64,000 bases of DNA from an uncultured delta proteobacterium (lineage in GTDB: Bacteria > Desulfobacterota > Binatia > UTPRO1): the NCBI GenBank assembly GCA_963774015.1, contig CAVZDH010000001.1:1206945-1270944 (forward strand), given 5' to 3'. Below the pieces are notes generated by a model that ran no database searches, was not told the DNA's origin, and saw nothing but the letters and a program-made list of their open reading frames with translations. Position numbers and translations under genes: made by a program. Positions 14,569 through 29,425 of the stretch are shown one piece after another; the stretch's first letter is position 1; each line of letters starts with the position of its first letter.

Positions 14569-14750
14569 TTACCCTTTAGGTATTTCGAGGGTAACCTGAT
14601 AGCCCAGGTCGGTGAGACGGCGGGGGTGATACGCGAGCAGATGATCGTGGCGGACGCGATGGAAGTGATCGGGGCCGAGATCGCGGAAGGGCACATCGTC
14701 GCGGAGCACATGGTAGACGGCGACGAGCAGGCTGTGCGCGACGGCGACGC
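14569..14750 (-). mobile_element. IS110-family transposase C-terminal fragment
   Basis: ..VAVAHSLLVAVYHVLRDDVPFRDLGPDHFHR..RLTDLGYQVTLE matches the IS110 C-terminal signature (..KLLVIAYHML..LGYQVTLEP). Confidence 0.5.
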
Positions 14751-14939
14751 CCCGCACGACGAGCCGGCGTCGCGGGGCGTCTTCGAGTCGGCTCGCGGCG
14801 CAGGTCACGCACGCGGGATTTCGCGTCGAGCGGCAACGCCGCGTCTTTCGCATCCCTGGGGTTCCTGCTGCCGCCGGCGCTCGCGGTCGCGCGGCGTCCG
14901 TACTCGCGACGAGTAGAGCTTCAATGGCGCGTCGCGGCC

Positions 14940-15524
14940 GTGCTAAAGCCCGAGGTCATGAAGACCAAACGGAAGCCCGTCACGTATGACGATCTGATGC
15001 GTGTGCCCGAGCACTTCGTCGCGGAAATCGTCGATGGCGAGCTTTTCACCTCGCCACGCCCGGCGACGCCGCACGCCCGTGCCGCGCTCCAAGTCGGACG
15101 CGATCTGGGTGGCTTCGACGGTCCGCCGGGCGATGACGACGCCGCCGGCGGATGGTGGATTCTCATCGAGCCGGAGCTGCACTTCGGTGCCGACGTGCTG
15201 GTCCCCGATCTCGCGGGGTGGCGGCGCGAGCGGCTCCCGAAGATCCCGAACGCGCCCGCCCTGACCCTCGCGCCCGACTGGGTCTGCGAGGTGCTTTCGC
15301 CGAGCACCATGCGCCTCGACCGCGCCCGCAAGATGCACGTCTACGCGCGCGAAGGGGTTGCGCATCTCTGGCTCCTCGACCCGCTCGCCCGCCTGCTCGA
15401 AACGTATCGCCTCGACGGCGAGCACTGGGTCGTCGCTGCGACGTTCGAGGGCGACGACGCGATCCGCGCCGAACCGTTCGACGCGCTGCCGCTCACGATG
15501 CGGCGCTGGTGGCTCGAAACGTAA
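14940..15524 (+). CDS. Uma2-family (DUF820) endonuclease
   Basis: ..PDWVCEVLSPST..D..KMHVYAREGVAHLWLLDP..LETYRL is the Uma2 hallmark. Confidence 0.8.
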   Translation: MLKPEVMKTKRKPVTYDDLMRVPEHFVAEIVDGELFTSPRPATPHARAALQVGRDLGGFDGPPGDDDAAGGWWILIEPELHFGADVLVPDLAGWRRERLPKIPNAPALTLAPDWVCEVLSPSTMRLDRARKMHVYAREGVAHLWLLDPLARLLETYRLDGEHWVVAATFEGDDAIRAEPFDALPLTMRRWWLET

Positions 15525-15678
15525 ACACCTCAGCGGGGCGTTCAGCTCGATTCGAGCCGCAGCCGTCGGTCCCCACGCTCAGGATCGGCCGTACGCACGG
15601 CGCGGATCTATCCCAGCACGGGCCACCCAGGTTACCATCGCCGGGTCGTGCCTCGCGATCAGCCGCGCATGCCCGCCG

Positions 15679-16635
15679 TCACGCCGCCGGAGCCGCCGCA
15701 GAGTCGTACGTCGGCCGCAGCTCGGGGTCGCCCCAGCGCTCCAGATAGTCACGCCGGAGGCCGAGGCAGCTGCCGTGCTGATAGCGGCAGCCGTTGCACT
15801 TCTCGGCATAGGTGTTCGGCGAGATCTTCGACTCCCAGAGCGCGAACGTCGCACGCGGCGTCACGACGAGCACCTTGTCCTCGCGCAGGTCGGCGACGTG
15901 GTCCTCGTACCCCGGGAGCATGCAGCGCGGGATGTGCCGCGACCGCACGGTGACGCCGAGGCGCCTGCCACGTTCGAACGCGGCGACGATGCCGTCACGC
16001 ATCTCCGACACCGTCGGCAGCGATTCGAGGTTGTCGCGGTTGCGGTCGCTCAACGACACGAGCCAGAGGTTGAAGGTGTCGATGCCGAAACCAGCCCAGT
16101 GCTCGACGATGTCGCCGAGGTGCATCCACGTGTCGTGCTTGATGATGAGATCGCCGATCGGGGTGCGGCCGCGCGCCTTCAGGTTACGCACTCCTCGGGT
16201 CACGAGCGACAGCGCGTCCGGCCGGCCCATGATGCGCGCGTAGAGCTCGTCGGTGTGCGCCATGAACGAGATGTGGAAGTCGGTGACGCCGGCGTCGCAA
16301 GCGTCTGCGGTGAAGGACTCGTAGGAGTACATCAGCCCGTTCGAGGGAATCTTGATCGACCGCCAGCCGCGGTCGCGGCACCAGCGGACGAGCGGGAGGA
16401 GGTCGCGGCGGATGGTCGGCTCGCCGCCGCCGAAGGCGACCTTCACGGCGCCGCGGCGGCGGGCCTCGGCGAGCGCCGCCATGACCGGCGCGGTCGCCAT
16501 GTTCTCCCTCCGCATCGCGTCGGTGATCGAGCAGTAGTCGCACTGCACGTTGCAGGCGTAGCCGATCATCACGTCGACCAGGACGTCGGCGTACTCGAAC
16601 CACTCCTCGCCGAGCTTGACGACGGTTGCGCTCAT
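15679..16635 (-). CDS. radical SAM / SPASM-domain protein (peptide-modifying type)
   Basis: GYACNVQCDYC (CxxxCxxC). FGGGEPTIR (SAM-binding glycine motif). C-terminal Cys cluster CNGCRYQHGSC. ATGA overlap with the upstream gene. Confidence 0.85.
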   Translation of the reverse strand: MSATVVKLGEEWFEYADVLVDVMIGYACNVQCDYCSITDAMRRENMATAPVMAALAEARRRGAVKVAFGGGEPTIRRDLLPLVRWCRDRGWRSIKIPSNGLMYSYESFTADACDAGVTDFHISFMAHTDELYARIMGRPDALSLVTRGVRNLKARGRTPIGDLIIKHDTWMHLGDIVEHWAGFGIDTFNLWLVSLSDRNRDNLESLPTVSEMRDGIVAAFERGRRLGVTVRSRHIPRCMLPGYEDHVADLREDKVLVVTPRATFALWESKISPNTYAEKCNGCRYQHGSCLGLRRDYLERWGDPELRPTYDSAAAPAA

Positions 16636-18965
16636 GCCATCGCCACCACCGGGCGGGCACGCTCGACGCGCATGTCGGGCTTGTCCTGGAGGAACACCTG
16701 GAACCCCTCGCACACCGTGGTCCACGGGCACTCCGCGCAGACCTCCCGCTTTTCGCGGCGCGCTCCGAGCCACTCGTAGAGGTTCACTTGCTCGGGAAAG
16801 CGGGGGTCGGCGGCGAAGACCATGGTGCGGCCCATCTTCTGCAGGTCGCCGACGACGTAGCGTTCGTAGCCCGGAAAGACGCAGAACTGCGCGTTGATGA
16901 CGTAGATCTGGATCTCGTCCGCATAGCGGTCGATGACGCGCATCACCGCGTTCGCCGCCTCCTCGAGCGGCGGCACCACGTCCTCCCAGGCCCGCCCGAA
17001 CGGGGTGGTGAACTGGAAGTTGATCTTGGAGAACCCCTTCGCCACCGCCAGCGCGGTGAGCGCCATGAGGTGCGCGACGTTGGCGCGCACGATCGTGACG
17101 TTGAGGCCGGTCTCCAGGTGCGCGGGCCCGCGCGCGCCGAGCGCGCTGCGCAGCTCCATGACGTTGTCGATGCCGGCGACCGTCTCCGCGAAGCTGCCGG
17201 GCGAGTCGGTGGCCGCTTCGTGCACCTCGGCGGTGGCGCCGTGCAGCGAGATCAGGAGGTGCGAGATGCCGCTGCCGACGACGCGCTCGGCGAGCGCCCG
17301 GTCGCGCAACAGGCGGCCGTTGGTCGTCAGGTTGATCGAGCGATAGCCGAGCTCGCGGGCGAGGCCGATGGCGTCCGTGAGGCGCGGGTGCGTCGTCGGC
17401 TCGCCGCCGTCGATGTCGAGCTGGTCGGTCCCTTCGTCGCGGTGCTGCCGCAGGATCTCCTCGATCTTGTCCCACCCGAGCGCGGCCGACACGCGGTCGC
17501 CGGTGGCGCAGAACACGCACCGGTTGGCGCACTTGTAGGTGATGTTCATGATGAGCTTCTGCGCCGCGCGGGCCGCGATTTTCATGTCGAACGCGGCGCG
17601 CGCCTTCTCGAGGTACCCCGGAGGGCAGCCGGGCGGGTCGAAGCAGGGGCGGTGCTGGAAGAGCGCCCCGTCCTTGAGATCGATGCCCCCGGGCGGGATG
17701 AGTCCCATGGACACGCACTCGTCGTGGAGCGCGGTGCCGAGGATCGGGGTCGCGAACTGCATCGACGGCCACGCCCGGTAGCGGTCGTAGAGCTCCCACG
17801 CCATCTCGAGCGTGCCGGTCACGTGCGCCGGCGTCTCCCAGGGAAAGCCGATGATGTAGTGGCTCATGAGCGGCACGTCGATCTCGCGGCACCACTCCGC
17901 GACGCGACGAATGGCCTCCAGCGGCTGGCCCTTGCCGATGGGTCCGTTCAGATCTTCCTGCGTCGCGCTCTCCGCCGAGATGCTGAGCATGCCGACGCGC
18001 CCCTTCATGAGCGCGATCGCTTCGCGGCTCAGGTGATCCGCGCGCATGCCGTTCGGGAAGTCATAGGTGAAGTCGAGCTCGTTCAGCATGCGGAGCATCG
18101 CCTCGAAGTCCGTCCGGACGTTCACCATCTCGTCCAGGACGATCAGCTTTGTCGCGCCGAATACGGTCTTGAGGAGATATGCCCAGTGCGTGAGGCGGGG
18201 CAGGGGGATCGGCCGGTAGAGCTTGCGTCCCGTCCGTCGCCAGCCCGGGTTGCTGGTGCAGAAGATGCAGCGATGCGGGCAGCCGATGCTGGTGACGAAC
18301 GAGCGCGTCCCGGTGCCGACGCCGAACGTGTTCTGCCATGTCCCGTCGCCGAAGCAGCGCTCGAGGAAGCGATCGAAGTTGCCGACGTCGATGCCGTCGA
18401 GGAAGTAGAACGGCTCGAGCGGGTCGGCGCCGCGCCCCTCCGAGCCGCGCAGCACGACGCGCGCATCGCCAAGGCTCGCGAGATATTCGGGCTCGGCGAA
18501 GAGACGCTCGCCGGGATACTTCAGGATCGCGTCGAGCTCCGGATATTGCGCCAGCGCCTGGTCGGCGTCGTAGTCGGCGTAGTGCTGGCCGCCCACGTAG
18601 CCGTCGGCGAGTAGCAGGACGGAGCGCGGAAATCGCGCCCGGAGCGCCGCGATCAAGGCACGCGTCTCGGCATGGGCGTTCTCGATGCGGAGGAAGACGG
18701 GACCGCCGAGGACCACGACGTCGTACCTGCCGCGGGGGAGCGACGCGATGAAGTCGTCGTGGCCGACGCCGAGCACCCATCCACCGGCGGCCCGGCGGTG
18801 GCGACCCGAGTCGGGCAACGCGAACGCGTCGTGCACCGTGACCTCGGCGCCCGACCGCGCCGCCAGCCCGGCACACGCGAGCAACCCGTGATTGGCGAAG
18901 AACGGGTAGTCGATGAAGTCGTCCTCGAGGACGAGCGGCGGATTGATGAAGAGGAAACGGGACAT
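16632..18965 (-). CDS. B12-binding (class B) radical SAM domain fused to a second radical SAM/SPASM-like domain (777 aa)
   Basis: N-terminal LFINPP..GLLACAGLAARSGAEVTVHD (cobalamin-binding fold), then CPHRCIFCTS, then a second core YKCANRCVFCATGD with DIDGGEPT, and a C-terminal CAECPWTTVCEGF. It is one continuous ORF. Confidence 0.8.
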   Translation of the reverse strand: MSRFLFINPPLVLEDDFIDYPFFANHGLLACAGLAARSGAEVTVHDAFALPDSGRHRRAAGGWVLGVGHDDFIASLPRGRYDVVVLGGPVFLRIENAHAETRALIAALRARFPRSVLLLADGYVGGQHYADYDADQALAQYPELDAILKYPGERLFAEPEYLASLGDARVVLRGSEGRGADPLEPFYFLDGIDVGNFDRFLERCFGDGTWQNTFGVGTGTRSFVTSIGCPHRCIFCTSNPGWRRTGRKLYRPIPLPRLTHWAYLLKTVFGATKLIVLDEMVNVRTDFEAMLRMLNELDFTYDFPNGMRADHLSREAIALMKGRVGMLSISAESATQEDLNGPIGKGQPLEAIRRVAEWCREIDVPLMSHYIIGFPWETPAHVTGTLEMAWELYDRYRAWPSMQFATPILGTALHDECVSMGLIPPGGIDLKDGALFQHRPCFDPPGCPPGYLEKARAAFDMKIAARAAQKLIMNITYKCANRCVFCATGDRVSAALGWDKIEEILRQHRDEGTDQLDIDGGEPTTHPRLTDAIGLARELGYRSINLTTNGRLLRDRALAERVVGSGISHLLISLHGATAEVHEAATDSPGSFAETVAGIDNVMELRSALGARGPAHLETGLNVTIVRANVAHLMALTALAVAKGFSKINFQFTTPFGRAWEDVVPPLEEAANAVMRVIDRYADEIQIYVINAQFCVFPGYERYVVGDLQKMGRTMVFAADPRFPEQVNLYEWLGARREKREVCAECPWTTVCEGFQVFLQDKPDMRVERARPVVAMA

Positions 18966-18969
18966 TGCG

Positions 18970-20007
18970 CTACAGGGGGCGCTCCATCGCCTGCTGCCGG
19001 CGCTCGAGCGACGGCTGCTCGGTCAGGGAGCGGCGACCGCCTCGTGCCATGAGCCGCGCCATGAGCTCCGGCGACGGGTTGCGTCTCAGCACTTTCGCGA
19101 TCACCGGGGTGGGGTCGTCGAAGATCGGCGAGAGCTCGCGCTCGTCGTAGCTCTTCGCCATCGAGAACATGCCCGCACAGATCGGGTCGAAGCGGCACGC
19201 CTGACAAGCGTCACCCTTGCCGTGGAGGAACTCCTTCTGGTGGATGAAGCCCTTGAAGTCGAGGAAGCGAATGCAGCGCTCCTCCTCCTTGATGATCTTG
19301 CGCGCTTCCGTCGAGGCCCACGCGTAGCGCCGCATGTAGCAGAGCGGCACGCGCTCGGCGCGAAAGCTCCGCCCCGTGCTCACGAGGTAGTCCATCGCCT
19401 TCTCGAGCGACACCTGGAACTCGTAGTGCCGCGGGATGCAGTCGGGATTCTCCTCGGCGCGATTGCCGTCGGGGTCCATGTTGTTCCAGACGAAGTGGCG
19501 GATGAACGGGAAGTTCTCGCAGATCCAGCGGACGTTCTCGTGGAGATGGTCGGCGTTCCAGACGTTGATGACGGTGTTGATGTCGGAAGTGATGCCCATC
19601 TCCGGGACGTGCTCCAGGCAGCGGACCAGCACGTCCCACGCCCCGCGATACTGCGTGATGAAGTCGTGGACCTCGCGCCGGTAGCTGTGGAGCGAAACGT
19701 GGATGTGGGTCAGGCCGGCATCGACGCAGCGCTTGAAGAAATCCTTGTCGGCGAGCTTCTGCCCGTTGGTGATCATGCGGCTGAAGAGCTTCCGCTCGCG
19801 TGCGTACGCGAGCGCGGGGAGCAGGAGCTCGGAGGTGCTCGGCTCCCCACCGGTCAGGATCACGCCGTCGTAGCCCATCTCGACGAGCTTATCGATGTTG
19901 CGGCGCATCTCGGGCTCGTCGAGATGCACGCCGGTCGGCGGGTTACTGCAGAAGTGGCACTTTTGGTAGCAGTTCCGCGTGAGCTGAAGGTAGCCGAGGT
20001 TTGCCAT
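18970..20007 (-). CDS. radical SAM / SPASM-like protein
   Basis: LTRNCYQKCHFCSNP. LTGGEPS. C-terminal CYMRRYAW..CIRFLD..GDACQACRFDPICAG. Confidence 0.85.
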   Translation of the reverse strand: MANLGYLQLTRNCYQKCHFCSNPPTGVHLDEPEMRRNIDKLVEMGYDGVILTGGEPSTSELLLPALAYARERKLFSRMITNGQKLADKDFFKRCVDAGLTHIHVSLHSYRREVHDFITQYRGAWDVLVRCLEHVPEMGITSDINTVINVWNADHLHENVRWICENFPFIRHFVWNNMDPDGNRAEENPDCIPRHYEFQVSLEKAMDYLVSTGRSFRAERVPLCYMRRYAWASTEARKIIKEEERCIRFLDFKGFIHQKEFLHGKGDACQACRFDPICAGMFSMAKSYDERELSPIFDDPTPVIAKVLRRNPSPELMARLMARGGRRSLTEQPSLERRQQAMERPL

Positions 20008-20016
20008 CGCCGGTCG

Positions 20017-21894
20017 TTACCCTTGGAGCGAAACCTGGCGCCGCTGCGCGGCCTCTTGGCGCGCGCGCTCGCGTTCCTCGCGTTTTTTTTGCGCGAACTC
20101 GATCAACGGCTCGACCGGGGCTGCTTGCGGCGGCGCGAACCCGGGGAGGCTCGGCCCGACTGGCTGCAGGGGCTGGCCGTCGCGGACGCGCGGGAGGGGT
20201 ATCGGCCGAAGCGCGAGCAGCTGCGCCGCCGCGTCCTCCGCCCACGCGCCTTCGCGCAGGGGCTGGAGCTCCGCGAAGCCCTGGTCGCGGATGAAATTGA
20301 TGTGCGCACCCTCGCAGCGCTCGTTCACGCGGCAATCGCGGCAGCGGAGCGATTTGGCCTGGTACCCGTGCACGACGTGCGTTCGTGCCAACTCACGGAT
20401 GGCGATGCGACCGGTCTCCGGGTCGAACAGCTTCCGCTCGAGCACCTTGGGCGCCTCGACGAGCTGTGTTCCCGGAGCGAGACAGGCGGTCAGACCGCTG
20501 GTCCGGATGGGGAGCGCGAGCTCGGTGAAGAAGCGCTTCAGATCGCGTACGTCGTTGGCGACCGCGTCTTTCAGGAACTCGTAGGTCGGCTGATGCAGAC
20601 GGACGACGTCGAGGTACGTCTGCACGCGCTCGCGCTGCGACAGCAGCCAGGGGGCGGTGCGCTGGTTCAGCTCGATCTCGACCTCGACACTCGCGGGCAA
20701 CGGCGTCCCGCTCAGCACGACGTCGAGCTGCTCCGGTTCGCGAAGAGCGAGCAGGAGGCGGTTCGGCACGCTCGCACGATCGACGAGTCGGGAGGTGCGT
20801 TTCGGTCGCACGTAGATGCCGACGTCCGGATGCACGCCGAGAGCTTCGACGTCCGGCAGATCGTCGATCTCGAGGCCGACGGATCGGCACCCGAACGGCA
20901 GTTCGCTCGGCGCCGGCAGGGTTTCGTTGGCTCCGTTGGCGGCGCCGATCCACCAGACGTTCCAGCTCTCCCGGTTCTGGCGCTCGATTACCCGATCGGC
21001 CGTGGTGCAGAACGGCTCGATGAAGCAGTGCACGCACCGCTCCTGTTGCCGGCATTCGAGGGGAACGCCTTCGTCGAGGTACTTGCGCACCTGGAAGCGC
21101 CGCCCGTTCACCTCGTCGAGCATCTTGTGCGGATCCTGGATGAGGTCTTCCAGACCCTCGAGGAACTCGACCGGGAAGCGATTCGTCCACACCACGACGT
21201 TGGGATGGCGGTTCAGGCGAAAGACCTTCTGCAGGCGGGGCAGGTGCTCGACGGGATCGTAGAAGAGGTCGTCCCGGTTCTCGAACGCCGCGCCCTGCGG
21301 GATGACGTGCAGGAGGTCGAACTCGTTGACTCCCACCGAGAGGCAGAGCGCGACGATCTTGTCGATGTACGCCACGTTCTGCTTGTTGATGCAGACGTCG
21401 ACGTTCACGATGACGCGTCCGTCGCGGCGGGCGCGGATCATGCCCTTCATGAGCCGGTCGAAGGCGCCCTCGACGCCCGTCAGGCGGTCGTGCAGCTCGG
21501 GCGTGTGGCCGTGCAGGCTGAACGTGATCTCGCCGAGACCGGCCTCGACGGCCGCCAGGTAGAAGTCGCGCTTCGCGAACATGTAGCCGTTGGTGACCGT
21601 CTGCACCCGGTTGTAGCCGATCTCCCGGGCGTAGCGGACGAAGTCGATGAACTTCGGGTGGATCGAGCCTTCGCCGCCCGACAGGATGACCTTGTCGGCG
21701 TTCAGCTCCTCGCGCCCGCGCCGGAGCTCTTGGCGGACGTCGGGCTCCAGCAGGTACATGTTCCGCGGCGTGTCCGTGTCGAGGCAGAACACGCAGCGGC
21801 TGTTGCACGCCGTGACGAGCCGTACCCAGTGCTTCCGGACGTTGGCCGCGCGCTCGCGGTCCAGCATCCGTTCCGTCAGCTGTCCAGCATCCAT
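20017..21894 (-). CDS. radical SAM protein with a long C-terminal extension (625 aa from MDAGQ; alternative start at 21921)
   Basis: VTACNSRCVFCLD and LSGGEGS. A downstream Cys pair ..CRDCRVNERCEG, then a K/R/E-rich tail. The upstream third of the 968-aa ORF is R-rich, non-coding-like, and overlaps gene 21876..23813. Confidence 0.8.
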   Translation of the reverse strand: MDAGQLTERMLDRERAANVRKHWVRLVTACNSRCVFCLDTDTPRNMYLLEPDVRQELRRGREELNADKVILSGGEGSIHPKFIDFVRYAREIGYNRVQTVTNGYMFAKRDFYLAAVEAGLGEITFSLHGHTPELHDRLTGVEGAFDRLMKGMIRARRDGRVIVNVDVCINKQNVAYIDKIVALCLSVGVNEFDLLHVIPQGAAFENRDDLFYDPVEHLPRLQKVFRLNRHPNVVVWTNRFPVEFLEGLEDLIQDPHKMLDEVNGRRFQVRKYLDEGVPLECRQQERCVHCFIEPFCTTADRVIERQNRESWNVWWIGAANGANETLPAPSELPFGCRSVGLEIDDLPDVEALGVHPDVGIYVRPKRTSRLVDRASVPNRLLLALREPEQLDVVLSGTPLPASVEVEIELNQRTAPWLLSQRERVQTYLDVVRLHQPTYEFLKDAVANDVRDLKRFFTELALPIRTSGLTACLAPGTQLVEAPKVLERKLFDPETGRIAIRELARTHVVHGYQAKSLRCRDCRVNERCEGAHINFIRDQGFAELQPLREGAWAEDAAAQLLALRPIPLPRVRDGQPLQPVGPSLPGFAPPQAAPVEPLIEFAQKKREERERARQEAAQRRQVSLQG

Positions 21895-23813
21895 CGTACC
21901 GACCTCGCGTTCCGCTGCCATCCGATCGCCGTGCCCGGGCAGCCGATCACGGTACACACATTTCCGTCGTCGCCGCAGCTCGCAAATGCGCCGACTGGAT
22001 CCGAGCCACGCGGGGCGTACTCGACGCGTCGGCCGAACGCGACGCCGAATGCCGGCCCCTCGCCCTCCACCGACTCGCCGGAAGCACGATCGCCCACGTC
22101 GAGACCTGCTTCCTCGCACAGGCAGTGCGGCAGCACCGCCAATAGCGCCGATCGCGCGGCGCCCGCCGGCAAGCGGCGCGCGCACTCGACGACGTCGTCC
22201 AGTAAAGACCCGTCCGCCGCCAGGCGAAACCGCGGCTGCCCCGGCAGCTCGCCGCGGCTCCACGCGTCGACGAATAGGGGAACCAAGCGCGCGTCGTGGA
22301 TGATCCCGTACGCGCCGACCTCGATCGACGTGTGCTCGTGCAATCGCTCGATGCCACGCAGGGTCGCCGCGAAGGAGCCGGCGATCCCGCAGTGGGCGTC
22401 GTGGCTCGTTGCGTCGGGTCCATAGAACGCCACGTCGATGCGCCGGAGGTCCTTCAATCGACGCAAATCGACGTCGCTCCACTTGACGATGGCGCTCCCC
22501 TCGCCGGCGCATTCGACGCGCGGGAAGAGCCGGACCGCATCGAAGAGCAACGCGGCGGCCTTCGGATGAGCGAGCAGCTCGGCGCCCACGAGCTGCAACA
22601 CCGCCGGCCGGAAGCGCGCGGCCTCGACCAGCCTCGCGCGCACGGCGCGCGTCGACTCGGGTCCGAGCGTGGAATGACCGCCTGCGGTCGAATGACCGCC
22701 TGCGGTCGAATGACCGTCGGCGCACCCGTCGCACCGGAGGCGGCGGGGTCCGCGCCATGAGAGCACCATCGTTCCGGATGGCCGTACGCTCTGCTGCGCG
22801 GCGACGTTCTCCCGAACGCGCTCCGCGATCGGCGCCAGGTCGGCGAGCTCTTCCCAACCGAAGCGCGCAACGTAGTCCGCTGGGGCTCCCGCGCACTGCG
22901 GCCCGCCGGGGCAGTCCGGGCATCCGCGCCCGGCTTCGAGCCCACCATCACTCGACCGCGCCGACTCCATCGACGCGACCGACTGCGCCGACTTGGTCGG
23001 TGCGACCGTGCCGCCCGTCGTCAGCCACACTTCGGCGTCGGAGCGGGCGAAGAGCCGTCGCAGCCGCGGCGCCACGCAGAGGGGGAAATCGCGAATCACC
23101 AAGCGGGCCCGTCGCTGGAGTGCGATCGTCGCCGCGCGTTCGAGATCCTCGGCGAGCAGCGACAGGCGCGGCGAGAGCAGGACGAATTCGGGGACGTCGA
23201 CGTCGACTGCGGTGAGACGCCGGAGCGAGATCGTCCGGACACCAACGCGCGTGAGGACGTCGACCGTCTCCGCGAGATGCGGCATCGTCGGCCGGGTGAC
23301 GACGACCTCGGCCTCGACCGGCATGCCGGTGTCGACGCAGGTGCGAATCGCGCGCAGCGCCGTCTTGAGCGCGCCCGGTTGCCCGACCAACCAGTCGTGG
23401 GCATCCCGGCGTGCACAGTGAAACGGTATGCTCAGCCGCTGCACGCCGGCGGATCGCAGCCGGTCGACCACGGTGTTCGTGAGTCCGGCACCCGTGGTGC
23501 AGAGGCCCAGATTCTCGGGGCGTAGCTCCAAGAGATCGTGGAGAAGAGAGGGCAGGTCGGCGCGGCGAAGCGGATCTCCGCCACCGATCAGGAAGGCGCC
23601 GGGTCGGTCCGTGACGGCGCGCGCGGCGTGGAGGACGTCGCTCGCCGGAAGCTCATCGTCGGCCGCCGCCGCACCGCCTCGCCACGGCAAGCGGGCCGGA
23701 CCGCGAACCAGCGAGACACGGAGGTTGATGCCCCGGATCGAGGCACCTGGTCCGGGGCCCCGTCCGCGCTCTTCGCTCGACGGCGTCGGATAATCGTGGA
23801 GAGTGGTGTTCAC
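21876..23813 (-). CDS. tandem double radical-SAM-like/SPASM-like protein lacking the CxxxCxxC triad in both halves
   Basis: Half 1: ..GINLRVSLV.. (no Cys), FLIGGGDPL, then CPDCPGGPQC. Half 2: VLQLVGAELLAHP, then CGDDGNVCTVIGCPG. The halves are joined by a GGHSTA x3 linker. Confidence 0.6.
   Translation of the reverse strand: MNTTLHDYPTPSSEERGRGPGPGASIRGINLRVSLVRGPARLPWRGGAAAADDELPASDVLHAARAVTDRPGAFLIGGGDPLRRADLPSLLHDLLELRPENLGLCTTGAGLTNTVVDRLRSAGVQRLSIPFHCARRDAHDWLVGQPGALKTALRAIRTCVDTGMPVEAEVVVTRPTMPHLAETVDVLTRVGVRTISLRRLTAVDVDVPEFVLLSPRLSLLAEDLERAATIALQRRARLVIRDFPLCVAPRLRRLFARSDAEVWLTTGGTVAPTKSAQSVASMESARSSDGGLEAGRGCPDCPGGPQCAGAPADYVARFGWEELADLAPIAERVRENVAAQQSVRPSGTMVLSWRGPRRLRCDGCADGHSTAGGHSTAGGHSTLGPESTRAVRARLVEAARFRPAVLQLVGAELLAHPKAAALLFDAVRLFPRVECAGEGSAIVKWSDVDLRRLKDLRRIDVAFYGPDATSHDAHCGIAGSFAATLRGIERLHEHTSIEVGAYGIIHDARLVPLFVDAWSRGELPGQPRFRLAADGSLLDDVVECARRLPAGAARSALLAVLPHCLCEEAGLDVGDRASGESVEGEGPAFGVAFGRRVEYAPRGSDPVGAFASCGDDGNVCTVIGCPGTAIGWQRNARSVRWMLDS
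22672..22725 (-). repeat. 18-bp tandem repeat (gaatgaccgcctgcggtc, 2 perfect + 1 diverged) encoding GGHSTA x3
   Basis: Direct reading. It lies in the inter-domain linker of the 21876..23813 gene. Confidence 0.7.
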
Positions 23814-23884
23814 CTGGTGACGTCCGTTCCGTCGGGGACGGTTAGCACGTCAGCAGGGCCACCTGCCAGGATTTTCTGATCGGC

Positions 23885-25540
23885 TCAATCGCGGTTGCGC
23901 AGCGACGATCGCGCGGTGCGGAGCGCGCTGGCTTCCTGGAGCAGGTGGGCGTAGGGCCCCCGTTTTCGCCGTCCCTCCGACCTCGGGTGGAGGAGACCCC
24001 GCACCCGGTCGATGCCTGTTATCCGCTCGCCGCCGCAATTGAGCCACGAGCCATCCGACGTCACGAGCTCCTCGAGGAAGTCGGGACGGCGCCGAAGGAG
24101 CTGGAGCGCATCCGCCTGCGCGAATGCGCGGTCGACGAGGGCCCGGCTCTCCGCGACGCGCGCGTCCCAGGCCGGCTTGGTGAGCGTCGTCGTGGCCGGC
24201 AGCGGACAGGGGACCTGCTGGCCGAGGAGCATGGTCATCAGCCCCTGATAGCCGAACGTCGGATCGCCCATTACGAAGCGGTGCGCGTCGGTCTCGAGCC
24301 CGGGGCCGAACCTGGCGAAGCGTTCCAACACCGGTGCGAGCCCCGAGACCTCGACGGTTTCGCGGCAATCTCGCCAGAATGGCGTATCGAGCTTGCGATT
24401 GAACTTGTAGTGGATCGCGAGGAACCAGCGCAGGTCGTCCCAGTGTCTCCCGATGCCCTCGTTCGCGAACGCGCGGTATTCGGGGCGGTCGCCGGACGCT
24501 TGTATGCCGCCGAGCAGGTACGCGATCTCGATGATCACCATGTGGAGCGCCGTCGACTCGAGCGGCTCGACGAAGCCGTAGGAGTTGCCGATCGCCACGG
24601 TATTGCCCTTCCAGAACTCCCGGTGACGGCCGCTCCGGAAGCGCACCGACCACGGCTCGCCGAGCCCGGGATTCTTCGCCCGCATCTCGGCCAGTGCCAG
24701 GTCCGCATTCAGGTGCGCCGACGAGTACACGTAGCCGCGATGGTCCTCACCCTCGACGGGGATCCGCCAGCACCAGCCGGCATCCATCGTCTCCGCGGTG
24801 GTGTAGGGCTGAATGACGCCGGTCTGTGGGACGGTCGCCACGACCGCGGTGTCGCAGAGGAGGCTCGACGCGTAGCTCGTGAAGGGCGAGCCCAGGATCT
24901 TTTCGATCAGCAAAGCGCGGAACCCGGTCGCGTCCACATAGAGGTCGGCGCGCAGCTCACGCTCGTCGTCGAGGATCAGCCGGTCGATGCTTTCGCCGTC
25001 GGTGGTTGTCGCGTCTTTGACGACCGCGTCGACGTGATGGATCCCGCCGCGTCGAGCGTGCTTCGTGAGGTAGGTGACGAAGGGCTGGTTGTCGACGTGG
25101 TACGCGAACTTGAGATCCGGGAGGAGCGAGAGCGGGGCGCCATCGTCGCCCCGCACGATCGGCGTGCGGTTGGTCGCCATCATCATCGCGACCACCGACT
25201 GGTTCTCGATCGTGCCGTCGTGGGTGTAGGCCTCGACGACGTTGTTGTCGCCGAACCCGTAGGCGAAACGGTAGTCGCCGGGCAGTCCCCACTCGAAGTT
25301 GATGCCGAGCTTCCACGTCGGGCGGACCTCACGGTAGAAGTCGACGATGTCGATGCCGAGCTGCTGGTGCAGGAACGGCGGCATCAGAGTCGTCGTCGCT
25401 TCGCCGACGCCGATGATCGGAATCGTGCTCGACTCGACCAGCGTCACGTCGAGCTCCGGGAGCTGCCGCTTCAGCGCGAGCGCCGCGAAGTAGCCTGCGG
25501 TTCCTCCGCCGACGACGACGACGCGGCGAACAGGCCCCAT
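23885..25540 (-). CDS. FAD-dependent tryptophan-halogenase-family protein
   Basis: VVVGGGTAGY. GVGEAT. The WxWxIP motif (GWCWRIP). The length and order of motifs match PF04820. Confidence 0.85.
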   Translation of the reverse strand: MGPVRRVVVVGGGTAGYFAALALKRQLPELDVTLVESSTIPIIGVGEATTTLMPPFLHQQLGIDIVDFYREVRPTWKLGINFEWGLPGDYRFAYGFGDNNVVEAYTHDGTIENQSVVAMMMATNRTPIVRGDDGAPLSLLPDLKFAYHVDNQPFVTYLTKHARRGGIHHVDAVVKDATTTDGESIDRLILDDERELRADLYVDATGFRALLIEKILGSPFTSYASSLLCDTAVVATVPQTGVIQPYTTAETMDAGWCWRIPVEGEDHRGYVYSSAHLNADLALAEMRAKNPGLGEPWSVRFRSGRHREFWKGNTVAIGNSYGFVEPLESTALHMVIIEIAYLLGGIQASGDRPEYRAFANEGIGRHWDDLRWFLAIHYKFNRKLDTPFWRDCRETVEVSGLAPVLERFARFGPGLETDAHRFVMGDPTFGYQGLMTMLLGQQVPCPLPATTTLTKPAWDARVAESRALVDRAFAQADALQLLRRRPDFLEELVTSDGSWLNCGGERITGIDRVRGLLHPRSEGRRKRGPYAHLLQEASALRTARSSLRNRD

Positions 25541-27022
25541 CTAGCGATGCCGGCCGGCTCCGGTCGTCCAGCGCTGCAGGATCTCGATCGTCGCGCGGTC
25601 GTTCTCGTCCGCCAGTGACGCGAACAGCGTGCGTGCGACGGCCATGTGCTCCTTGCACTCGAAAGATCGCGGCCGTTGACCGAAGAGGTCTCCTTCGCGG
25701 ACGTAGCTCGTCACGGGGGAGATGCCGCAGAACGGCTTGTTCCAGCAGTCCGCGCACATCGGCTGCGCGTCGAGGAGCGATGCCGCCGTGATCGCCCGGA
25801 CCGTCGGGTGTCGGACGATGTCGGCGATCGTCAGCTTTCGCACGTTGCCGAGCGCGAAGATGGGATCCCCCAGCGCGTCGACGCGCCGTGCCTCGTCGCT
25901 CGGGAATATCTGGCCATCGACGTCGTACAGGAGCTCGCTCGTCCCGGCCGAGCACGGCGATCGGATCTCCCGCGCAGCGGGATTCCCGCAGGACAGGATG
26001 CTGTTCAGGAACCCCGACGCCGTTCGCTCGGCGAGGCGCACCCCGCTGCGATTCAGCTCCAGGATATGGCCGAACGCACGGTCGTAGAATGCCAGGTATT
26101 CCTCGGCAGTGTACCCGATCGTTTGCCACGCCTCGGCGTCGAAGCCGAGCGGGCTGAGCGGTTGCAGCTGGATGGACTGCATCCCACGAGCCACGTACTC
26201 GTCCACGACCTCGCGCCACGCCGGCAGCGTTCGCCGCGTCGTCGTGACTCTGGTGTCCACGTGCCAAACCTCGGGATCGCGACCGAGGTCGCGGTATCGA
26301 CGCTCGAACCACGCGAGCCACCGCACCACGTCCGCGTGTGCGCCGGCCACCGTGTACCTGCGGTTCCACTCGTGGATCTCGGCTGGTCCGTCGAGCCACG
26401 TCCGGACGGCGACGTCGTTTGCGAGCAGCCACTCCGCGGTCTCCTCCGTCATCCCGCTCAGGTTGCTGACGAGCGTGAAGCGGAGCGTCTTGCCCGCGGC
26501 GCGCTCGTTCGTCGCCCGCGCGAATTCCACCAGGTGCCGGACGCCGTCGACGTTCAGCAGCGGCTCGCCCGCATGCGCCTGCAGCTCGAACGACACCGAA
26601 GGGGACGTGGTCTGGAGCGCGACGTCGACGATGCGCTCGGCCGTTTTCCGATCGAGGTCCAGGCGAGCGTCGGGTGACGCGGACGGGGCCTCGCCACGGT
26701 CATCGCAGCGCCGGGTCATCATGACGACGTGCAGCTCCGGCCCGCGCGCGACATGGCCCACGCGCCGCGCCAGCCTGGTTGCGAGCGCGTCGAGATCGAG
26801 GCCGTCGCGAAGAAAACCCCCGGCGTGGAGCTGCGCGAAGCGCGGGTGGCCTTCCGTGACCTCTCCCGCGAGCAGTTGGACGAACTCCGGCTCGCTCAGG
26901 AGCACCCAATCGCCACCGTCCGTGGTGATCAGAACCTTCCCGGCGATTCGGCCCCAGCGAAAGAATCCCAGCCGATCGATCGCGACCGTCGACGGGAAAG
27001 GTACCGCGAAGCTCGCGGACAT
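25541..27022 (-). CDS. HxsB/HxsC-like radical-SAM-fold maturase homolog with a degenerate Fe-S motif (..MTRRCDDRGEAP..) and a C-terminal SPASM-like cluster
   Basis: Second rSAM motif QAHAGEPLL. CADCWNKPFCGISP. Only one Cys where CxxxCxxC is expected. Tightly packed with neighbours (1-nt and 0-nt junctions). Confidence 0.65.
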   Translation of the reverse strand: MSASFAVPFPSTVAIDRLGFFRWGRIAGKVLITTDGGDWVLLSEPEFVQLLAGEVTEGHPRFAQLHAGGFLRDGLDLDALATRLARRVGHVARGPELHVVMMTRRCDDRGEAPSASPDARLDLDRKTAERIVDVALQTTSPSVSFELQAHAGEPLLNVDGVRHLVEFARATNERAAGKTLRFTLVSNLSGMTEETAEWLLANDVAVRTWLDGPAEIHEWNRRYTVAGAHADVVRWLAWFERRYRDLGRDPEVWHVDTRVTTTRRTLPAWREVVDEYVARGMQSIQLQPLSPLGFDAEAWQTIGYTAEEYLAFYDRAFGHILELNRSGVRLAERTASGFLNSILSCGNPAAREIRSPCSAGTSELLYDVDGQIFPSDEARRVDALGDPIFALGNVRKLTIADIVRHPTVRAITAASLLDAQPMCADCWNKPFCGISPVTSYVREGDLFGQRPRSFECKEHMAVARTLFASLADENDRATIEILQRWTTGAGRHR

Positions 27023-27312
27023 TACTGAGCGCCCTCCGGACGGCCCTCCGGGCGGCCCTCCGAGGCTTCGGGCGCCTCCGGCGCCTCGAGCGCGGCGGCC
27101 CGCCGCATTCGCACGACGGTTTCCTGCAAGGCGAGGTTGCAGAACGAGTGCTCGATCGTGTCGCGATCAGCGCCGCGAACGGCGCCGACGACCGCGACCA
27201 CCGCGTCGCCCGAGTGCTCGAGGGCGATGTCCGCGTACTCGGCGTAGGTCGCCGCTGCTGCCTCGACGGCGTCGGGAGCGTACAGCGATCGGTCGAAGGT
27301 GATCCGGCCCAT
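27022..27312 (-). CDS. HxsD-like small protein (96 aa)
   Basis: MGRITFDRSLYAPDAVEAAAATYAEY..EHSFCNLALQETVVRMRR. Pattern Y..EAI..AAY...(40 aa)..F.N.LL....R. The upstream 41 codons of the ORF look spurious. Confidence 0.55.
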   Translation of the reverse strand: MGRITFDRSLYAPDAVEAAAATYAEYADIALEHSGDAVVAVVGAVRGADRDTIEHSFCNLALQETVVRMRRAAALEAPEAPEASEGRPEGRPEGAQ

Positions 27313-27328
27313 CCGAAACGTGGCGACC

Positions 27329-27838
27329 CTACTTCGGCTCGCTTCCCTTGTCGCTTTGCTTCCCTTCCCAGGGAACGGAGATCTCGAGCGGGTCGTCCCC
27401 GAGCTCTTCCGCGTCGAGCTCGGCGAGGAGATCATCGACGGACGGCGCCGAGGCCGCTGCTCGCAACGCTGCGGCCGTGTAGTACTCGCGGATGCGCGCG
27501 GCGGCGTGCGATAGGCGCAGCCGCGTCGCCTGCGAGAGCATCTCGTTCATGAACTCGCCGGCGAGCACTTCGAGCTCGGCGGACGTCGCTGGTGCACGCG
27601 ACGTCAAGCGAACGTTCACCACCTGGGGTCTCGGCCGGGAGAGAAACACGAAGCACCGGTCGACGAAAAGATACGCCCCCCCGTAGATCGCTTCGAGGGA
27701 ATAGACCGTCTCGTCGACGTCGAATGATGCATGATCGCGCCCGAACGAGACGCCGAGGCGCGACTCGGGGACTTCCGACCGAACGTCATGTTCACCGATC
27801 GCCACGGCTCTTCCTTTCGCCCGTCGTTCTTGGTTCAC
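27329..27838 (-). CDS. second HxsD-like paralog (up to 169 aa; start uncertain)
   Basis: ..VYSLEAIYGGAYLFVDR..GEFMNEMLSQATRLRL. Same pattern as above. GTG start at 27838. Confidence 0.45.
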   Translation of the reverse strand: MNQERRAKGRAVAIGEHDVRSEVPESRLGVSFGRDHASFDVDETVYSLEAIYGGAYLFVDRCFVFLSRPRPQVVNVRLTSRAPATSAELEVLAGEFMNEMLSQATRLRLSHAAARIREYYTAAALRAAASAPSVDDLLAELDAEELGDDPLEISVPWEGKQSDKGSEPK

Positions 27839-28236: not shown

Positions 28237-28415
28237 AGCGGATCGCGTCCCCAAGTGCCGCGCCCCCACATGTCGCACATATCGCTCATAAGCGTTTCGC
28301 AAAAAGGCGGCTCGTCCGCGATGACGATCCACGCGGTGGTGGTCTCTGCGGAGCGGCATGGTGGGGAAGGATGTCGGAGGCGCGAGGGAGTCAGGTTTCC
28401 AGAAGGGAGCGGGCG

Positions 28416-29021
28416 ATGCTTTCACGACGCGAATTGATCGGCAAAGCGGCAGTGGGTGCGGCCGCAGCGTTGGCAGTGGGGGGCATGGGAACGGCGGTGG
28501 CGGCGACGCGGCCCCTGCGGGTGCCGATGGACGATCCCACGCGCGGCCGGGACGGGCGGACAGCGACGGACGCGCCCATGGACGCCGCGGAGGCGCCGGA
28601 CGCCGCCGCAGCGAGCGCCGCGCCGCCGCCCTGGGAGCTGCTGGCGCCGTTCCGTGCGGGCGCCGTGGTCGCGCACGGCTGGCGTCTCGTCGACGTGACG
28701 CCGATCCGGGACGGATCGGCGGTCGTGACGCTGCAGAACGCGCGTGGGCGCGCGCACCGCGTGCATCTTTGCCGCAATGACGGGAGCCCGCAGGGGATCG
28801 TCTACACGCGGCGGGTCGATCTCGTGGTGATGAATCAGGGCTACGGGGATCTTCCGACCGAGGAGCATCTGGGGCAGGCCGTTGCGACGCTGGCGCATGC
28901 GGTGGCGGCCAACGAGGCCCGGGTGCCGGACGGCGTATTCGCCGAGCTCGTGCCGCACGCCGAGCGCGTGCGGCGCTACGCGGCGGCGGCGGATGCTTCG
29001 GCGGACGGCAGGCTGCGGTGA
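28416..29021 (+). CDS. Tat-signal secreted hypothetical protein
   Basis: RBS agggagcgggcg, then MLSRRELIGKAAVGAAAALAVGG (twin-arginine motif). It lies 37 nt upstream of the HxsA-like gene. Confidence 0.6.
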   Translation: MLSRRELIGKAAVGAAAALAVGGMGTAVAATRPLRVPMDDPTRGRDGRTATDAPMDAAEAPDAAAASAAPPPWELLAPFRAGAVVAHGWRLVDVTPIRDGSAVVTLQNARGRAHRVHLCRNDGSPQGIVYTRRVDLVVMNQGYGDLPTEEHLGQAVATLAHAVAANEARVPDGVFAELVPHAERVRRYAAAADASADGRLR

Positions 29022-29058: not shown

Positions 29059-29376
29059 ATGAGCGACCAAGAGAAGGGGCTGCCGTTACTGCGCAAGACG
29101 CCGGTGGATTTCCTCAGTCGGGAGGAAGCCCGCCAAGCGCTCAATCCCGACGTCGCGCTGGACGCGTCCGAGGCGGCGCGGGCGCTGCGCGCCGAACCCA
29201 ACAGCGAGAAGCTGCTGCTCGCCCAACATTTGTCCCACGCATCGCACGGCAGCCACGGGAGTCACGGCAGCCATGGGAGTCACGGGAGCCACGGGAGCCA
29301 CGGCAGCCACGGCAGTCACGGCTCGCACGGCAGTCACGGTTCCCACGGCAGTCACGGCTCTCACGGGTCGTGGTGA
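29059..29376 (+). CDS. hxsA: His-Xaa-Ser repeat precursor peptide (HxsA-like): leader plus (H-G/A-S)x16 and a C-terminal Trp
   Basis: RBS ggtgaaggag, then ATG 29059. Leader MSDQEKGLPLLRKTPVDFLSREEARQALNPDVALDASEAARALRAEPNSEKLLLAQHL. Core SHASHGSHGSHG....SHGSW*. Confidence 0.75.
   Translation: MSDQEKGLPLLRKTPVDFLSREEARQALNPDVALDASEAARALRAEPNSEKLLLAQHLSHASHGSHGSHGSHGSHGSHGSHGSHGSHGSHGSHGSHGSHGSHGSW
29235..29370 (+). repeat. 9-bp coding microsatellite (cac-ggn-agy)n, ~15 units
   Basis: Direct reading of the hxsA core region. Confidence 0.85.
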
Positions 29377-29425
29377 GAATCCGCCCGGTATCAGAACGCA
29401 CCTCGGCGTAAACGGAGGCATCGCG

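What the first reader, a model, noticed from the sequence alone, without database searches (positions are those of the whole stretch)
21876..27022. Radical-SAM-fold proteins that have lost the CxxxCxxC cluster ligands (one of them a tandem double domain)
Seen: the 645-aa product (21876-23813) has two rSAM-like halves. Each retains a GGDP/GAELL SAM-motif-like glycine block and a downstream SPASM-like Cys cluster (CPDCPGGPQC; CGDDGNVCTVIGCPG). There is no Cys where the radical-SAM triad belongs (GINLRVSLV...). The 493-aa HxsB/C-like product (25541-27022) reads MTRRCDDRGEAP where CxxxCxxC is expected, yet keeps CADCWNKPFCGISP at the C-terminus. The DNA around these sites is in frame, so this is not a frameshift artefact.

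Inference: these are catalytically dead or repurposed rSAM folds. They could be peptide-binding or scaffold subunits, or auxiliary-cluster-only enzymes, working with the five canonical rSAM enzymes in the same operon.
Basis: partly seen in the sequence, partly recalled or inferred. Interest (0 to 1): 0.7.

Follow-up and report, generated by a model that had tools for sequence, protein, structure and literature searches.

The report
Conserved cluster-less radical-SAM proteins, Hxs operon
Two genes in an enlarged His-Xaa-Ser peptide-maturation operon encode proteins that keep the radical-SAM enzyme fold and some auxiliary iron-sulfur sites but have lost the three cysteines needed for radical chemistry, and they are conserved across many genomes, so they are probably working non-catalytic helpers and not broken genes.

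Summary
The 645-aa protein (21876-23813, minus) and the 493-aa HxsB-like protein (25541-27022, minus) both lack CxxxCxxC. No alternative frame hides one.

The 645-aa protein belongs to an old, unnamed two-domain family with about 130 clusters at 50% identity. No member has a triad. The N-half has no Cys at the site. The C-half keeps an invariant CxxC, which corresponds to the 2nd and 3rd triad Cys. Each half keeps an HxsC-type four-Cys auxiliary motif.

The HxsB-like loss is recent and probably recurrent. 16 of 72 orthologs keep "CNQTCAYC". The triad-less ones have also lost the Aux-I ligands but keep all four Aux-II ligands.

Both genes are under purifying selection (dN/dS about 0.25-0.32, against 0.05-0.20 for the four catalytic neighbours, which always keep their five triads). 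By contrast, the neighbouring halogenase really has decayed in relatives.

Best reading: these are SAM-cleavage-incompetent accessory subunits that present the precursor and act as a scaffold or Fe-S relay in an expanded HxsA4-type system. That makes it a new variant of a known kind, of moderate interest. The function is inferred, not shown.

The parts
21876..23813 (-). 645-aa tandem double pseudo-radical-SAM protein ('g645'); GTG start; its last codons overlap the start of the next gene by 19 nt
22824..23732 (-). g645 N-half (aa 28-330): an HxsC-type barrel with auxiliary motif C246...C298xxC301x5C307. The triad loop is replaced by the conserved R-G-P-x-R-L-P-W-R.
   Evidence: hhalign 96-98.7% against the canonical g345 family, with the auxiliary Cys aligned one for one; MoaA and BlsE profile alignment begins just after their triads
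23673..23705 (-). Former triad loop of the N-half (aa 37-47, RGPARLPWRGG): no Cys in any homolog
21879..22796 (-). g645 C-half (aa 340-645): a diverged second barrel with auxiliary motif C564...C613x6C620x4C625
   Evidence: hhalign 97.1% (E 6e-11) against the N-half and 91% (E 9e-7) against the gene3 rSAM domain; (beta/alpha)6 pattern at high pLDDT; not recognisable by single-sequence Pfam
22722..22745 (-). Residual R357-x3-C361-x2-C364 of the C-half: the 2nd and 3rd triad Cys are kept, the 1st is never Cys
   Evidence: invariant in 86 homologs; register fixed by hhalign against the gene3 triad; lost in some distant family members
22672..22716 (-). Perfect 18-bp tandem repeat (2.5 copies) encoding (GHSTAG)n in the disordered loop just after the CxxC; copy number varies among homologs
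   Evidence: pLDDT below 50 at aa 369-381
25541..27022 (-). 493-aa HxsB-like pseudo-rSAM/SPASM protein (RRE-like N-domain, barrel, partial SPASM)
   Evidence: TIGR03978 365.1 bits against cutoff 370; model pLDDT 85.3; full-length match to CteB and match to anSME
26669..26716 (-). Former triad loop of HxsB-like (aa 103-118, TRRCDDRGEAPSASPD). The lone C106 is not conserved; the loop is variable and full of indels in relatives, and is the only low-confidence internal loop of the model.
27329..27838 (-). HxsD homolog
   Evidence: TIGR03976 45 bits against cutoff 50; conserved synteny
27022..27312 (-). HxsD-like small protein (probable start at M42 of the 27022-27435 ORF); its stop overlaps the hxsB-like start
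   Evidence: NF038315 48 bits against cutoff 41
23885..25540 (-). Intact flavin-dependent halogenase-family gene lying between the two triad-less genes
   Evidence: PF04820 379 bits; GxGxxG, WxWxIP and WKLG motifs; only fragments remain in related loci
20017..21894 (-). Canonical HxsC/HxsC4-like rSAM ('gene3', CNSRCVFC) with a roughly 325-aa C-terminal extension
18970..20007 (-). Canonical HxsC-like rSAM ('g345', CYQKCHFC)
16632..18965 (-). Fusion of two canonical rSAM domains ('g777': CPHRCIFC in the HpnJ-like half, CANRCVFC in the HxsC4-like half)
15679..16635 (-). Fifth canonical rSAM domain ('gene5', CNVQCDYC); last gene of the conserved block
29059..29376 (+). HxsA4-type precursor: a 55-aa leader followed by a 17-unit H-x-S run (HLS, HAS, then 15 HGS) and a terminal W; transcribed divergently from the maturase operon
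   Evidence: NF038313 102 bits against cutoff 55; 9/18-bp repeat at 29245-29358
28371..29021 (+). Protein with a twin-arginine-like N-terminus and no family match; next to HxsA in most related loci

Best explanation
Both proteins are radical-SAM-derived pseudoenzymes. They cannot bind the SAM-cleaving [4Fe-4S] cluster in the canonical way, and they are kept as non-radical accessory subunits of an expanded HxsA4-type peptide-maturation machine.

The HxsB-like protein keeps three things: its N-terminal RRE-like domain, its barrel, and the four Cys of the outer (Aux II) SPASM cluster. It most likely binds the conserved 55-aa HxsA leader and presents the (HGS)n core to the catalytic enzymes.

The 645-aa protein is a fused pair of dead HxsC-type domains, each keeping a four-Cys auxiliary-cluster motif. 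It most likely acts as a scaffold, an Fe-S electron relay, or both. It could also be a docking platform for the two HxsD-type proteins, serving the four adjacent catalytic rSAM proteins (five triads). It appears to be translationally coupled to the first of these.

Shown here: loss of the triad, retention of the fold, retention of the auxiliary Cys, conservation, purifying selection, and synteny. Inferred: peptide binding, scaffolding or electron relay, and the identity of the partners.
For: No triad and no frameshift.

The loss is conserved: 0 of 41 loci and 0 of 150 representatives of the g645 family carry a triad at the site, while every gene3, g345 and g777 ortholog with its triad region on the contig keeps its triad.

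Auxiliary Cys are invariant: C246/C298/C301/C307 and C564/C613/C620/C625.

In HxsB-like, the Aux-II-type Cys C423/C426/C432/C456 are kept in 69 of 72 sequences. Both Aux-I-type Cys survive only in triad-keeping members.

dN/dS is 0.25-0.32 for both proteins, against 0.05-0.20 for the catalytic neighbours.

Outside the lost cluster sites the barrel stays almost as conserved in triad-less HxsB as in triad-keeping HxsB (0.77 against 0.85).

Internal control: the halogenase gene really has decayed to fragments in relatives.

The gene overlaps suggest co-translation.

In the characterised E. coli system HxsC binds HxsD, which is a precedent for HxsC-type domains as docking partners (PMC13128918).
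Against: There is no biochemical evidence.

The invariant C361xxC364 in the C-half is not explained by a pure scaffold role.

GGE-like SAM-motif remnants persist (GGD, GAE, AGE), so some nucleotide or SAM binding may remain.

In E. coli the HxsB triad is essential, and no stable HxsB-HxsC complex was seen. A catalysis-free HxsB therefore has no experimental precedent.

A canonical HxsB-2 sits downstream in four relatives whose contigs reach that far (L004, L008, L010, L025) and is absent from this window, but it could lie elsewhere in the genome.

The dN/dS values are crude NG86 estimates in a GC-biased genome.
Confidence: 0.6

Rival explanations
1. The C-half of the 645-aa protein is still a radical (or other Fe-S) enzyme with a non-canonical cluster site. 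On this reading the invariant C361xxC364 plus a third ligand bind a cluster that still activates SAM, as happens in rSAM-related enzymes with atypical ligation. The third ligand could be the near-invariant C475, a His or Asp, or a residue from a partner or from the His-rich substrate.
For: C361 and C364 are invariant in 86 homologs and align exactly with the 2nd and 3rd triad Cys. C475 is conserved in 90% or more. A GAE remnant of the GGE motif is kept. After the four auxiliary ligands there are three further conserved Cys in the C-half.
Against: The first triad position is never Cys. Several distant family members have lost the CxxC entirely while keeping the rest of the domain. C475 aligns with a position that is Arg in BlsE-type enzymes (by-eye extension of the N-half to C-half correspondence) and is not a known ligand position. 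The loop after the CxxC is a variable, low-confidence repeat insertion. The N-half and the HxsB-like protein have no candidate ligands at all.
Confidence: 0.15
2. The barrels have been repurposed for a different, non-radical catalytic activity needed in Hxs maturation, with the auxiliary clusters playing a structural role. Candidate activities are leader cleavage or a SAM-dependent but non-radical step.
For: In E. coli the N-terminal cleavage of HxsA needs HxsB, HxsC and HxsD, and no protease has been assigned. New conserved motifs replace the triad loop: LPWR in the N-half, and invariant H132, R135, H139, D140 and W141. GGD and GGE remnants persist.
Against: There is no similarity to any protease or transferase family. 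dN/dS is about twice that of the catalytic neighbours, which fits a relaxed, non-catalytic role better. The conserved H-D motif is shared with ordinary SPASM/twitch rSAM enzymes.
Confidence: 0.15
3. They are pseudogenes in decay, or artefacts of sequencing or assembly.
For: dN/dS is somewhat higher than for the neighbours. The former triad loop of HxsB-like is variable and full of indels.
Against: The ORFs are full-length and intact in more than 100 independent assemblies. dN/dS is far below 1. There are dozens of invariant residues, including all auxiliary Cys. The models are confident. No frameshift is present. Genuine decay in the same loci looks quite different: the halogenase is reduced to fragments.
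Confidence: 0.03

Closest known systems
HxsB, His-Xaa-Ser system radical SAM maturase (TIGR03978); E. coli HXS antiphage system (Li et al., Nat Commun 2026, PMC13128918)
   Same: End-to-end homology (365 bits, profile positions 3-466 of 466). RRE-rSAM-SPASM fold. Sits directly after HxsD and HxsD-like genes and near a His-Xaa-Ser repeat precursor.
   Different: No CxxxCxxC, whereas C98A/C101A in E. coli HxsB abolishes HxsA processing and defence. Two Aux-I Cys are lost. The score is just below the curated cutoff. The locus has about 12 genes instead of 4. [quoted passage not shown]
HxsC / HxsC4 radical SAM proteins (TIGR03977, NF038332)
   Same: The N-half of the 645-aa protein is a clear paralog of the HxsC-like enzymes next door and shares their PLC...CxxCx5C auxiliary motif. 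Genomic association is the same.
   Different: A tandem double domain. No triad in either half. Scores are far below the cutoffs (61 against 268; 43 against 500). The family has no model of its own in Pfam, NCBIfam or PADLOC.
TIGR04347 'pseudo-SAM/SPASM protein' family (NCBIfam name, haloarchaea)
   Same: Judging by its name, an rSAM/SPASM-type family regarded as not a true radical SAM enzyme. This shows the concept is known to curators.
   Different: Not the same family (53.6 bits against cutoff 525). Single domain. Different taxa and context. Not linked to Hxs systems. The details of that family rest on the model's name only.
CteB (PDB 5WGG/5WHY) and anSMEcpe (4K36-4K39), SPASM rSAM peptide-modifying enzymes
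   Same: Best structural matches of the HxsB-like model. Same domain order as CteB (N-terminal RRE-type domain, barrel, SPASM). The Aux II ligand set is conserved.
   Different: Those enzymes carry three clusters (RS, Aux I, Aux II). The window protein can fully ligate only Aux II.

Membership tests
Radical SAM superfamily (PF04055) | Partial (beta/alpha)6 TIM-barrel core fold | tested here: met
Radical SAM superfamily (PF04055) | Three-Cys motif (CxxxCxxC or a variant) after beta-1 that ligates the SAM-binding [4Fe-4S] | tested here: not met
   None in either protein. N-half has 0 of 3 Cys, C-half 2 of 3, HxsB-like 1 of 3 (not conserved).
Radical SAM superfamily (PF04055) | GGE-type SAM-binding motif after beta-2 | tested here: inconclusive
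   Remnants are present: GGD (N-half, GGE in many homologs), GAE (C-half), AGE (HxsB-like, GGE in relatives). Their presence does not show that SAM binds.
Radical SAM superfamily (PF04055) | Reductive cleavage of SAM to the 5'-deoxyadenosyl radical | not testable with these tools
   Needs anaerobic biochemistry.
HxsB (TIGR03978) | Score at or above the curated cutoff (370 bits) | tested here: not met
   365.1 bits, full-length alignment; a marginal miss.
HxsB (TIGR03978) | Seven-Cys SPASM motif binding two auxiliary clusters | tested here: not met
   Five of seven are present. S375 and S435 replace Aux-I ligands. The Aux II set C423/C426/C432/C456 is intact.
HxsB (TIGR03978) | Genomic association with HxsD and a His-Xaa-Ser repeat precursor | tested here: met
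   HxsD and an HxsD-like gene lie immediately upstream, and HxsA4 lies about 2 kb upstream of hxsB-like, transcribed divergently.
HxsC (TIGR03977) / HxsC4 (NF038332) | Score at or above the curated cutoff, with an intact triad | tested here: not met
   g645 scores 61.3 against 267.9 and 43.3 against 500, and has no triad.
HxsC (TIGR03977) / HxsC4 (NF038332) | C-terminal CxxCx5C second-cluster motif | tested here: met
   In the N-half, C246/C298/C301/C307 align one for one with C223/C268/C271/C277 of the canonical g345. The C-half has a variant, C564...Cx6Cx4C.
Canonical four-gene HXS antiphage system (PMC13128918) | [quoted passage not shown] | tested here: not met
   The cluster has about 12 genes. 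HxsA is 105 aa with a 17-unit H-x-S run; it is below the cutoff for TIGR03979 but above it for HxsA4, NF038313. There are no PADLOC hits for HxsB-like, g645 or HxsD. A Pfam scan of HxsA itself was not run.
TIGR04347 pseudo-SAM/SPASM | Score at or above the curated cutoff (525 bits) | tested here: not met
   53.6 bits.

The most novel reading that the evidence does not exclude
The invariant two-Cys remnant (C361xxC364) of the C-half, completed by a ligand from outside the loop, forms a non-canonical Fe-S site. That ligand could come from a partner protein or from a histidine of the (HGS)n substrate itself. The 645-aa protein would then be a new kind of substrate-gated or partner-completed radical-SAM-like enzyme, not a dead scaffold. 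A related version is that the two triad-less proteins form an Fe-S-wired assembly-line platform that organises five rSAM active sites for processive modification of a repeat peptide.
Probability: 0.12. Interest if true: 0.8.

Novelty: new variant of a known kind. Interest (0 to 1): 0.55.

Why it matters
Radical SAM enzymes are defined by their three-Cys cluster site. Public annotation calls both of these proteins 'radical SAM protein' or 'HxsB maturase', which is probably wrong as a description of their function.

The locus offers two natural experiments. The first is an ancient, stable tandem pair of cluster-less HxsC domains that still keep their auxiliary-cluster ligands. The second is an HxsB lineage caught shedding first its radical cluster and Aux I while keeping Aux II and its peptide-recognition domain. 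This matters because in the only characterised Hxs system the HxsB triad is essential.

If the scaffold and presenter roles are confirmed, they would help separate what SPASM/twitch auxiliary clusters and RRE domains do independently of radical chemistry. They would also show how multi-rSAM RiPP-like pathways are organised, and they would improve the automated annotation of several hundred metagenomic proteins.

Tried and rejected
- Frameshift or alternative-frame triads: none found.
- Gene decay: rejected on dN/dS, on intact ORFs across assemblies, and on the contrast with the truly decayed halogenase.
- Single-sequence Pfam on the C-half alone gave no rSAM hit. A shallow profile gave only weak links. 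A broader profile was needed.
- gene3's C-terminal extension was tested as a possible third pseudo-rSAM domain. No barrel similarity was found, only the Cys motif.
- A second, canonical HxsB in the window was searched for and is absent.
- PADLOC: no defence-system hits for the triad-less proteins.
- Literature searches for described cluster-less rSAM pseudoenzymes or for Binatia Hxs clusters found nothing relevant.
- Model coordinates were not exposed, so Cys-Cys distances, and therefore which Cys could share a cluster, could not be measured.
- A Biopython bootstrap timed out and was redone with a faster distance.
- The terminal Trp of HxsA was considered as a halogenase target, but it is conserved in loci without the halogenase, so no link is shown.
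Full report
**1. What is there**

The window is about 69% GC. Codon-position GC identifies a minus-strand operon running from about 27.8 kb down to 15.7 kb. Read in the direction of transcription, it contains:

- hxsD, 27329-27838 (TIGR03976, 45 bits against cutoff 50)
- an HxsD-like gene, 27022-27435 (probable start at 27312; NF038315, 48 against 41)
- the 493-aa HxsB-like gene, 25541-27022 (TIGR03978, 365.1 bits against cutoff 370, aligned end to end)
- a flavin-dependent halogenase-family gene, 23885-25540 (PF04820, 379 bits)
- the 645-aa gene ('g645'), 21876-23813
- four canonical rSAM genes: gene3 (20017-21894, CNSRCVFC), g345 (18970-20007, CYQKCHFC), g777 (16632-18965, with CPHRCIFC and CANRCVFC) and gene5 (15679-16635, CNVQCDYC)

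The precursor is transcribed divergently at 29059-29376 (+). It is 105 aa: a 55-aa leader, then a 17-unit H-x-S run (HLS, HAS, then 15 HGS), then a terminal W. It passes NCBIfam's curated HxsA4 model (102 bits against cutoff 55).

The closest relatives are uncultured Binatia or 'Deltaproteobacteria' MAGs.

**2. Checking the observation**

Neither protein contains CxxxCxxC. At the three expected sites the other two reading frames hold no hidden triad, and the coding-frame signal runs without a break. This is not a frameshift artefact.

Three details need correcting:

- The C-half of g645 keeps C361xxC364.
- There are five canonical triads in four proteins, not five enzymes.
- The C-terminal Cys motifs of g645 are HxsC-type single-cluster motifs, not full SPASM motifs.

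**3. The 645-aa protein belongs to an old, conserved, unnamed family**

More than 100 full-length homologs share 52-84% identity. A search without a word index finds 130 clusters (at 50% identity) with E below 1e-30.

In an 86-sequence alignment the invariant Cys are C246, C298, C301, C307, C361, C364, C564, C613, C620 and C625. C475 is conserved in 90% or more.

No family member has a triad at the expected place:

- 0 of 41 related loci, including Myxococcota relatives at 30-40% identity.
- 0 of 150 representatives. The three CxxxCxxC strings that were found lie at aa 223-343, not at the N-terminal triad site. By position I took them to be auxiliary regions or, for P0382 (CNSRCLFC at aa 343), a fusion with a gene3-like enzyme; I did not check this.

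In the same loci, every gene3, g345 and g777 ortholog whose triad region is on the contig keeps its triad.

The N-half is an unambiguous HxsC-type paralog. hhalign gives 96-98.7% probability against the g345 family, and the motif PLC...CxxCx5C aligns Cys for Cys.

The C-half is too diverged for single-sequence Pfam. A broad family profile links it to the N-half (97.1%, E 6e-11, 167 columns) and to the gene3 rSAM domain (91%, E 9e-7). In that second alignment R357/C361/C364 sit on C30/C34/C37 of gene3.

So the N-half has replaced the triad loop with a conserved R-G-P-x-R-L-P-W-R. The C-half retains the second and third Cys but never the first. A few distant members have lost even those.

**4. 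The HxsB-like protein: a recent and probably recurrent loss**

Within one orthologous group of 72 sequences (56-90% identity to the window protein), 16 keep a textbook 'TLRCNQTCAYCQ'. The other 56, including every relative at 65% identity or more, have a variable, indel-ridden loop in its place. The window's single C106 is not conserved.

The loss is correlated with other changes:

- All four Cys corresponding to anSME Aux II (C423, C426, C432, C456) are kept in 69 of 72 sequences.
- Both Aux-I-type Cys (positions 375 and 435) survive only in triad-keeping members, in 10 of those 16.
- The ligand mapping comes from profile alignment to CteB and anSME and from the published anSME assignment (PMC5715301).

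Outside those sites the barrel is nearly as conserved in triad-less members as in triad-keeping ones (0.77 against 0.85 mean column conservation).

The model (pLDDT 85.3) matches CteB over about 475 columns, which includes the N-terminal RRE-type domain. Its only low-confidence internal loop is the former triad loop.

On an outgroup-rooted NJ tree the triad-keeping sequences are nested among triad-less ones. A loss-only count gives 3 losses (bootstrap median 5, range 1-10). Recurrent loss is therefore likely but not proven.

Triad-keeping orthologs sit in an ordinary HxsD, small gene, HxsB, rSAM module.

Four relatives with a triad-less HxsB whose contigs extend far enough (L004, L008, L010, L025) also have a second, canonical HxsB (CNHGCQYC) downstream of gene5. 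This window does not, and synteny with the relatives ends at gene5's stop.

**5. Are they functional?**

Pairwise dN/dS against six orthologous loci:

| Gene | dN/dS |
|---|---|
| HxsB-like | 0.25-0.32 over four full-length comparisons (0.20 and 0.32 for two partial ones) |
| g645 (both halves similar) | 0.25-0.31 |
| g345 | 0.05-0.15 |
| gene3 | 0.13-0.20 |
| g777 | 0.13-0.20 |

This is clear purifying selection, about twice as relaxed as in the catalytic neighbours.

The same loci provide a control for what real decay looks like. The halogenase is intact here, with GxGxxG, WxWxIP and WKLG motifs. In L001 and L003 it is reduced to about 55 C-terminal codons, and in L025 it carries an internal deletion.

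The gene junctions are tight:

- The HxsD-like stop overlaps the hxsB-like start.
- The halogenase start abuts the hxsB-like stop.
- gene3's ATG lies 19 nt inside the end of g645.

**6. Mechanism**

The best-supported reading is that both proteins are SAM-cleavage-incompetent accessory subunits.

HxsB-like keeps the parts of a RiPP maturase that do not need the radical cluster, namely the RRE-type domain, the barrel and the outer Aux II cluster. It probably binds the conserved leader and presents the repeat core.

g645 is a covalent pair of dead HxsC domains with two probable auxiliary [4Fe-4S] sites. [quoted passage not shown] Here there are two HxsD-type proteins and two dead HxsC-type domains. 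That suggests a docking platform, an Fe-S relay, or both, serving the five active rSAM domains. These functional steps are inference.

The main unexplained feature is the invariant CxxC in the C-half. It keeps open a rival reading with a non-canonical cluster site (about 0.15). A repurposed non-radical catalytic role is a second rival (about 0.15). Decay or artefact is effectively excluded.

**7. Comparison with what is known, and novelty**

The system belongs to the Hxs superfamily of loci. Its precursor class (HxsA4), an HxsC4 model and an HxsD-like model already exist in NCBIfam, so the variant system is not unknown to curators.

It is not the canonical four-gene HXS antiphage system. According to the 2026 paper, more than 99.8% of HXS systems consist of just those four proteins.

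The idea of a 'pseudo-SAM/SPASM' protein also exists as an NCBIfam family name (TIGR04347), but that is a different family (53.6 bits against cutoff 525).

I could not find the following anywhere in Pfam, NCBIfam, PADLOC or the searchable literature:

- the tandem double-domain triad-less family
- a naturally triad-less HxsB
- the ordered pattern of decay, with RS and Aux I lost and Aux II kept

Public annotations call these proteins 'radical SAM protein' or 'HxsB maturase'.

I rate it a new variant of a known kind, with moderate interest (0.55).

Noticed in passing
window 23885-25540 (-): An intact flavin-dependent halogenase-family gene (PF04820, 379 bits; GxGxxG, WxWxIP and WKLG motifs) sits between the two triad-less genes. 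In related loci it is absent or reduced to fragments: about 55 codons in L001 and L003, and an internal deletion in L025. Its substrate is unknown. The conserved C-terminal Trp of HxsA is an obvious candidate, but that Trp is also conserved in loci without the halogenase.
   Followed up: partly
window 22672-22716 (-), aa 366-381 of the 645-aa protein: A perfect 18-bp tandem repeat encodes (GHSTAG)n in a disordered loop immediately after the residual CxxC. Copy number varies between homologs. The His-Ser-rich unit loosely resembles the (HGS)n substrate, so a pseudo-substrate role is conceivable but untested.
   Followed up: partly
window 29059-29376 (+); L004 226-7048: The HxsA4-type precursor is very conserved across loci: a 55-aa leader, (HGS)15-25 and a terminal W. 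In L004 the precursor and its neighbouring TAT-like gene are present in three tandem copies. In L016 and L017 HxsA hits occur at two places.
   Followed up: partly
window 28371-29021 (+): A 216-aa protein with a twin-arginine-like N-terminus (SRRELIGKAAVGAAA) and no match in Pfam or NCBIfam lies next to HxsA in most related loci that include that flank. It may be an exported partner or receptor of the mature peptide.
   Followed up: partly
window 20017-20990 (-), aa 301-625 of gene3: The canonical rSAM gene3 carries a conserved C-terminal extension of about 325 aa with a second C471...C518xxC521x5C527 motif. It shows no detectable rSAM barrel similarity and may be a further auxiliary-cluster module.
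   Followed up: partly
window 16632-18965 (-): The 777-aa protein fuses two complete rSAM domains. One is HpnJ-like (weak hit, 38 bits; CPHRCIFC). The other is HxsC4-like (CANRCVFC). Both triads are conserved in all orthologs long enough to include them.
   Followed up: partly
window ~13400-15680, compared with L004, L008, L010 and L025: Several relatives carry a second HxsD plus a canonical HxsB (CNHGCQYC) downstream of gene5. In this window synteny stops at gene5's stop and that module is missing, so the only HxsB within these 64 kb is the triad-less one.
   Followed up: yes
window 29273-33214 (+), with antisense ORF 30151-32793 (-): A very long plus-strand ORF encodes dozens of Cys-rich repeats of about 24-25 aa (e.g. 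...CRPSAGVCDVAENCTGSSAACPAD...). The 880-aa antisense ORF is probably spurious. No family search was run on the plus-strand product.
   Followed up: no
window 11054-13411 (+): A 785-aa protein with RTX-type calcium-binding repeats (NF033943, 73 bits, far below its cutoff) lies just beyond the end of the conserved Hxs block.
   Followed up: no
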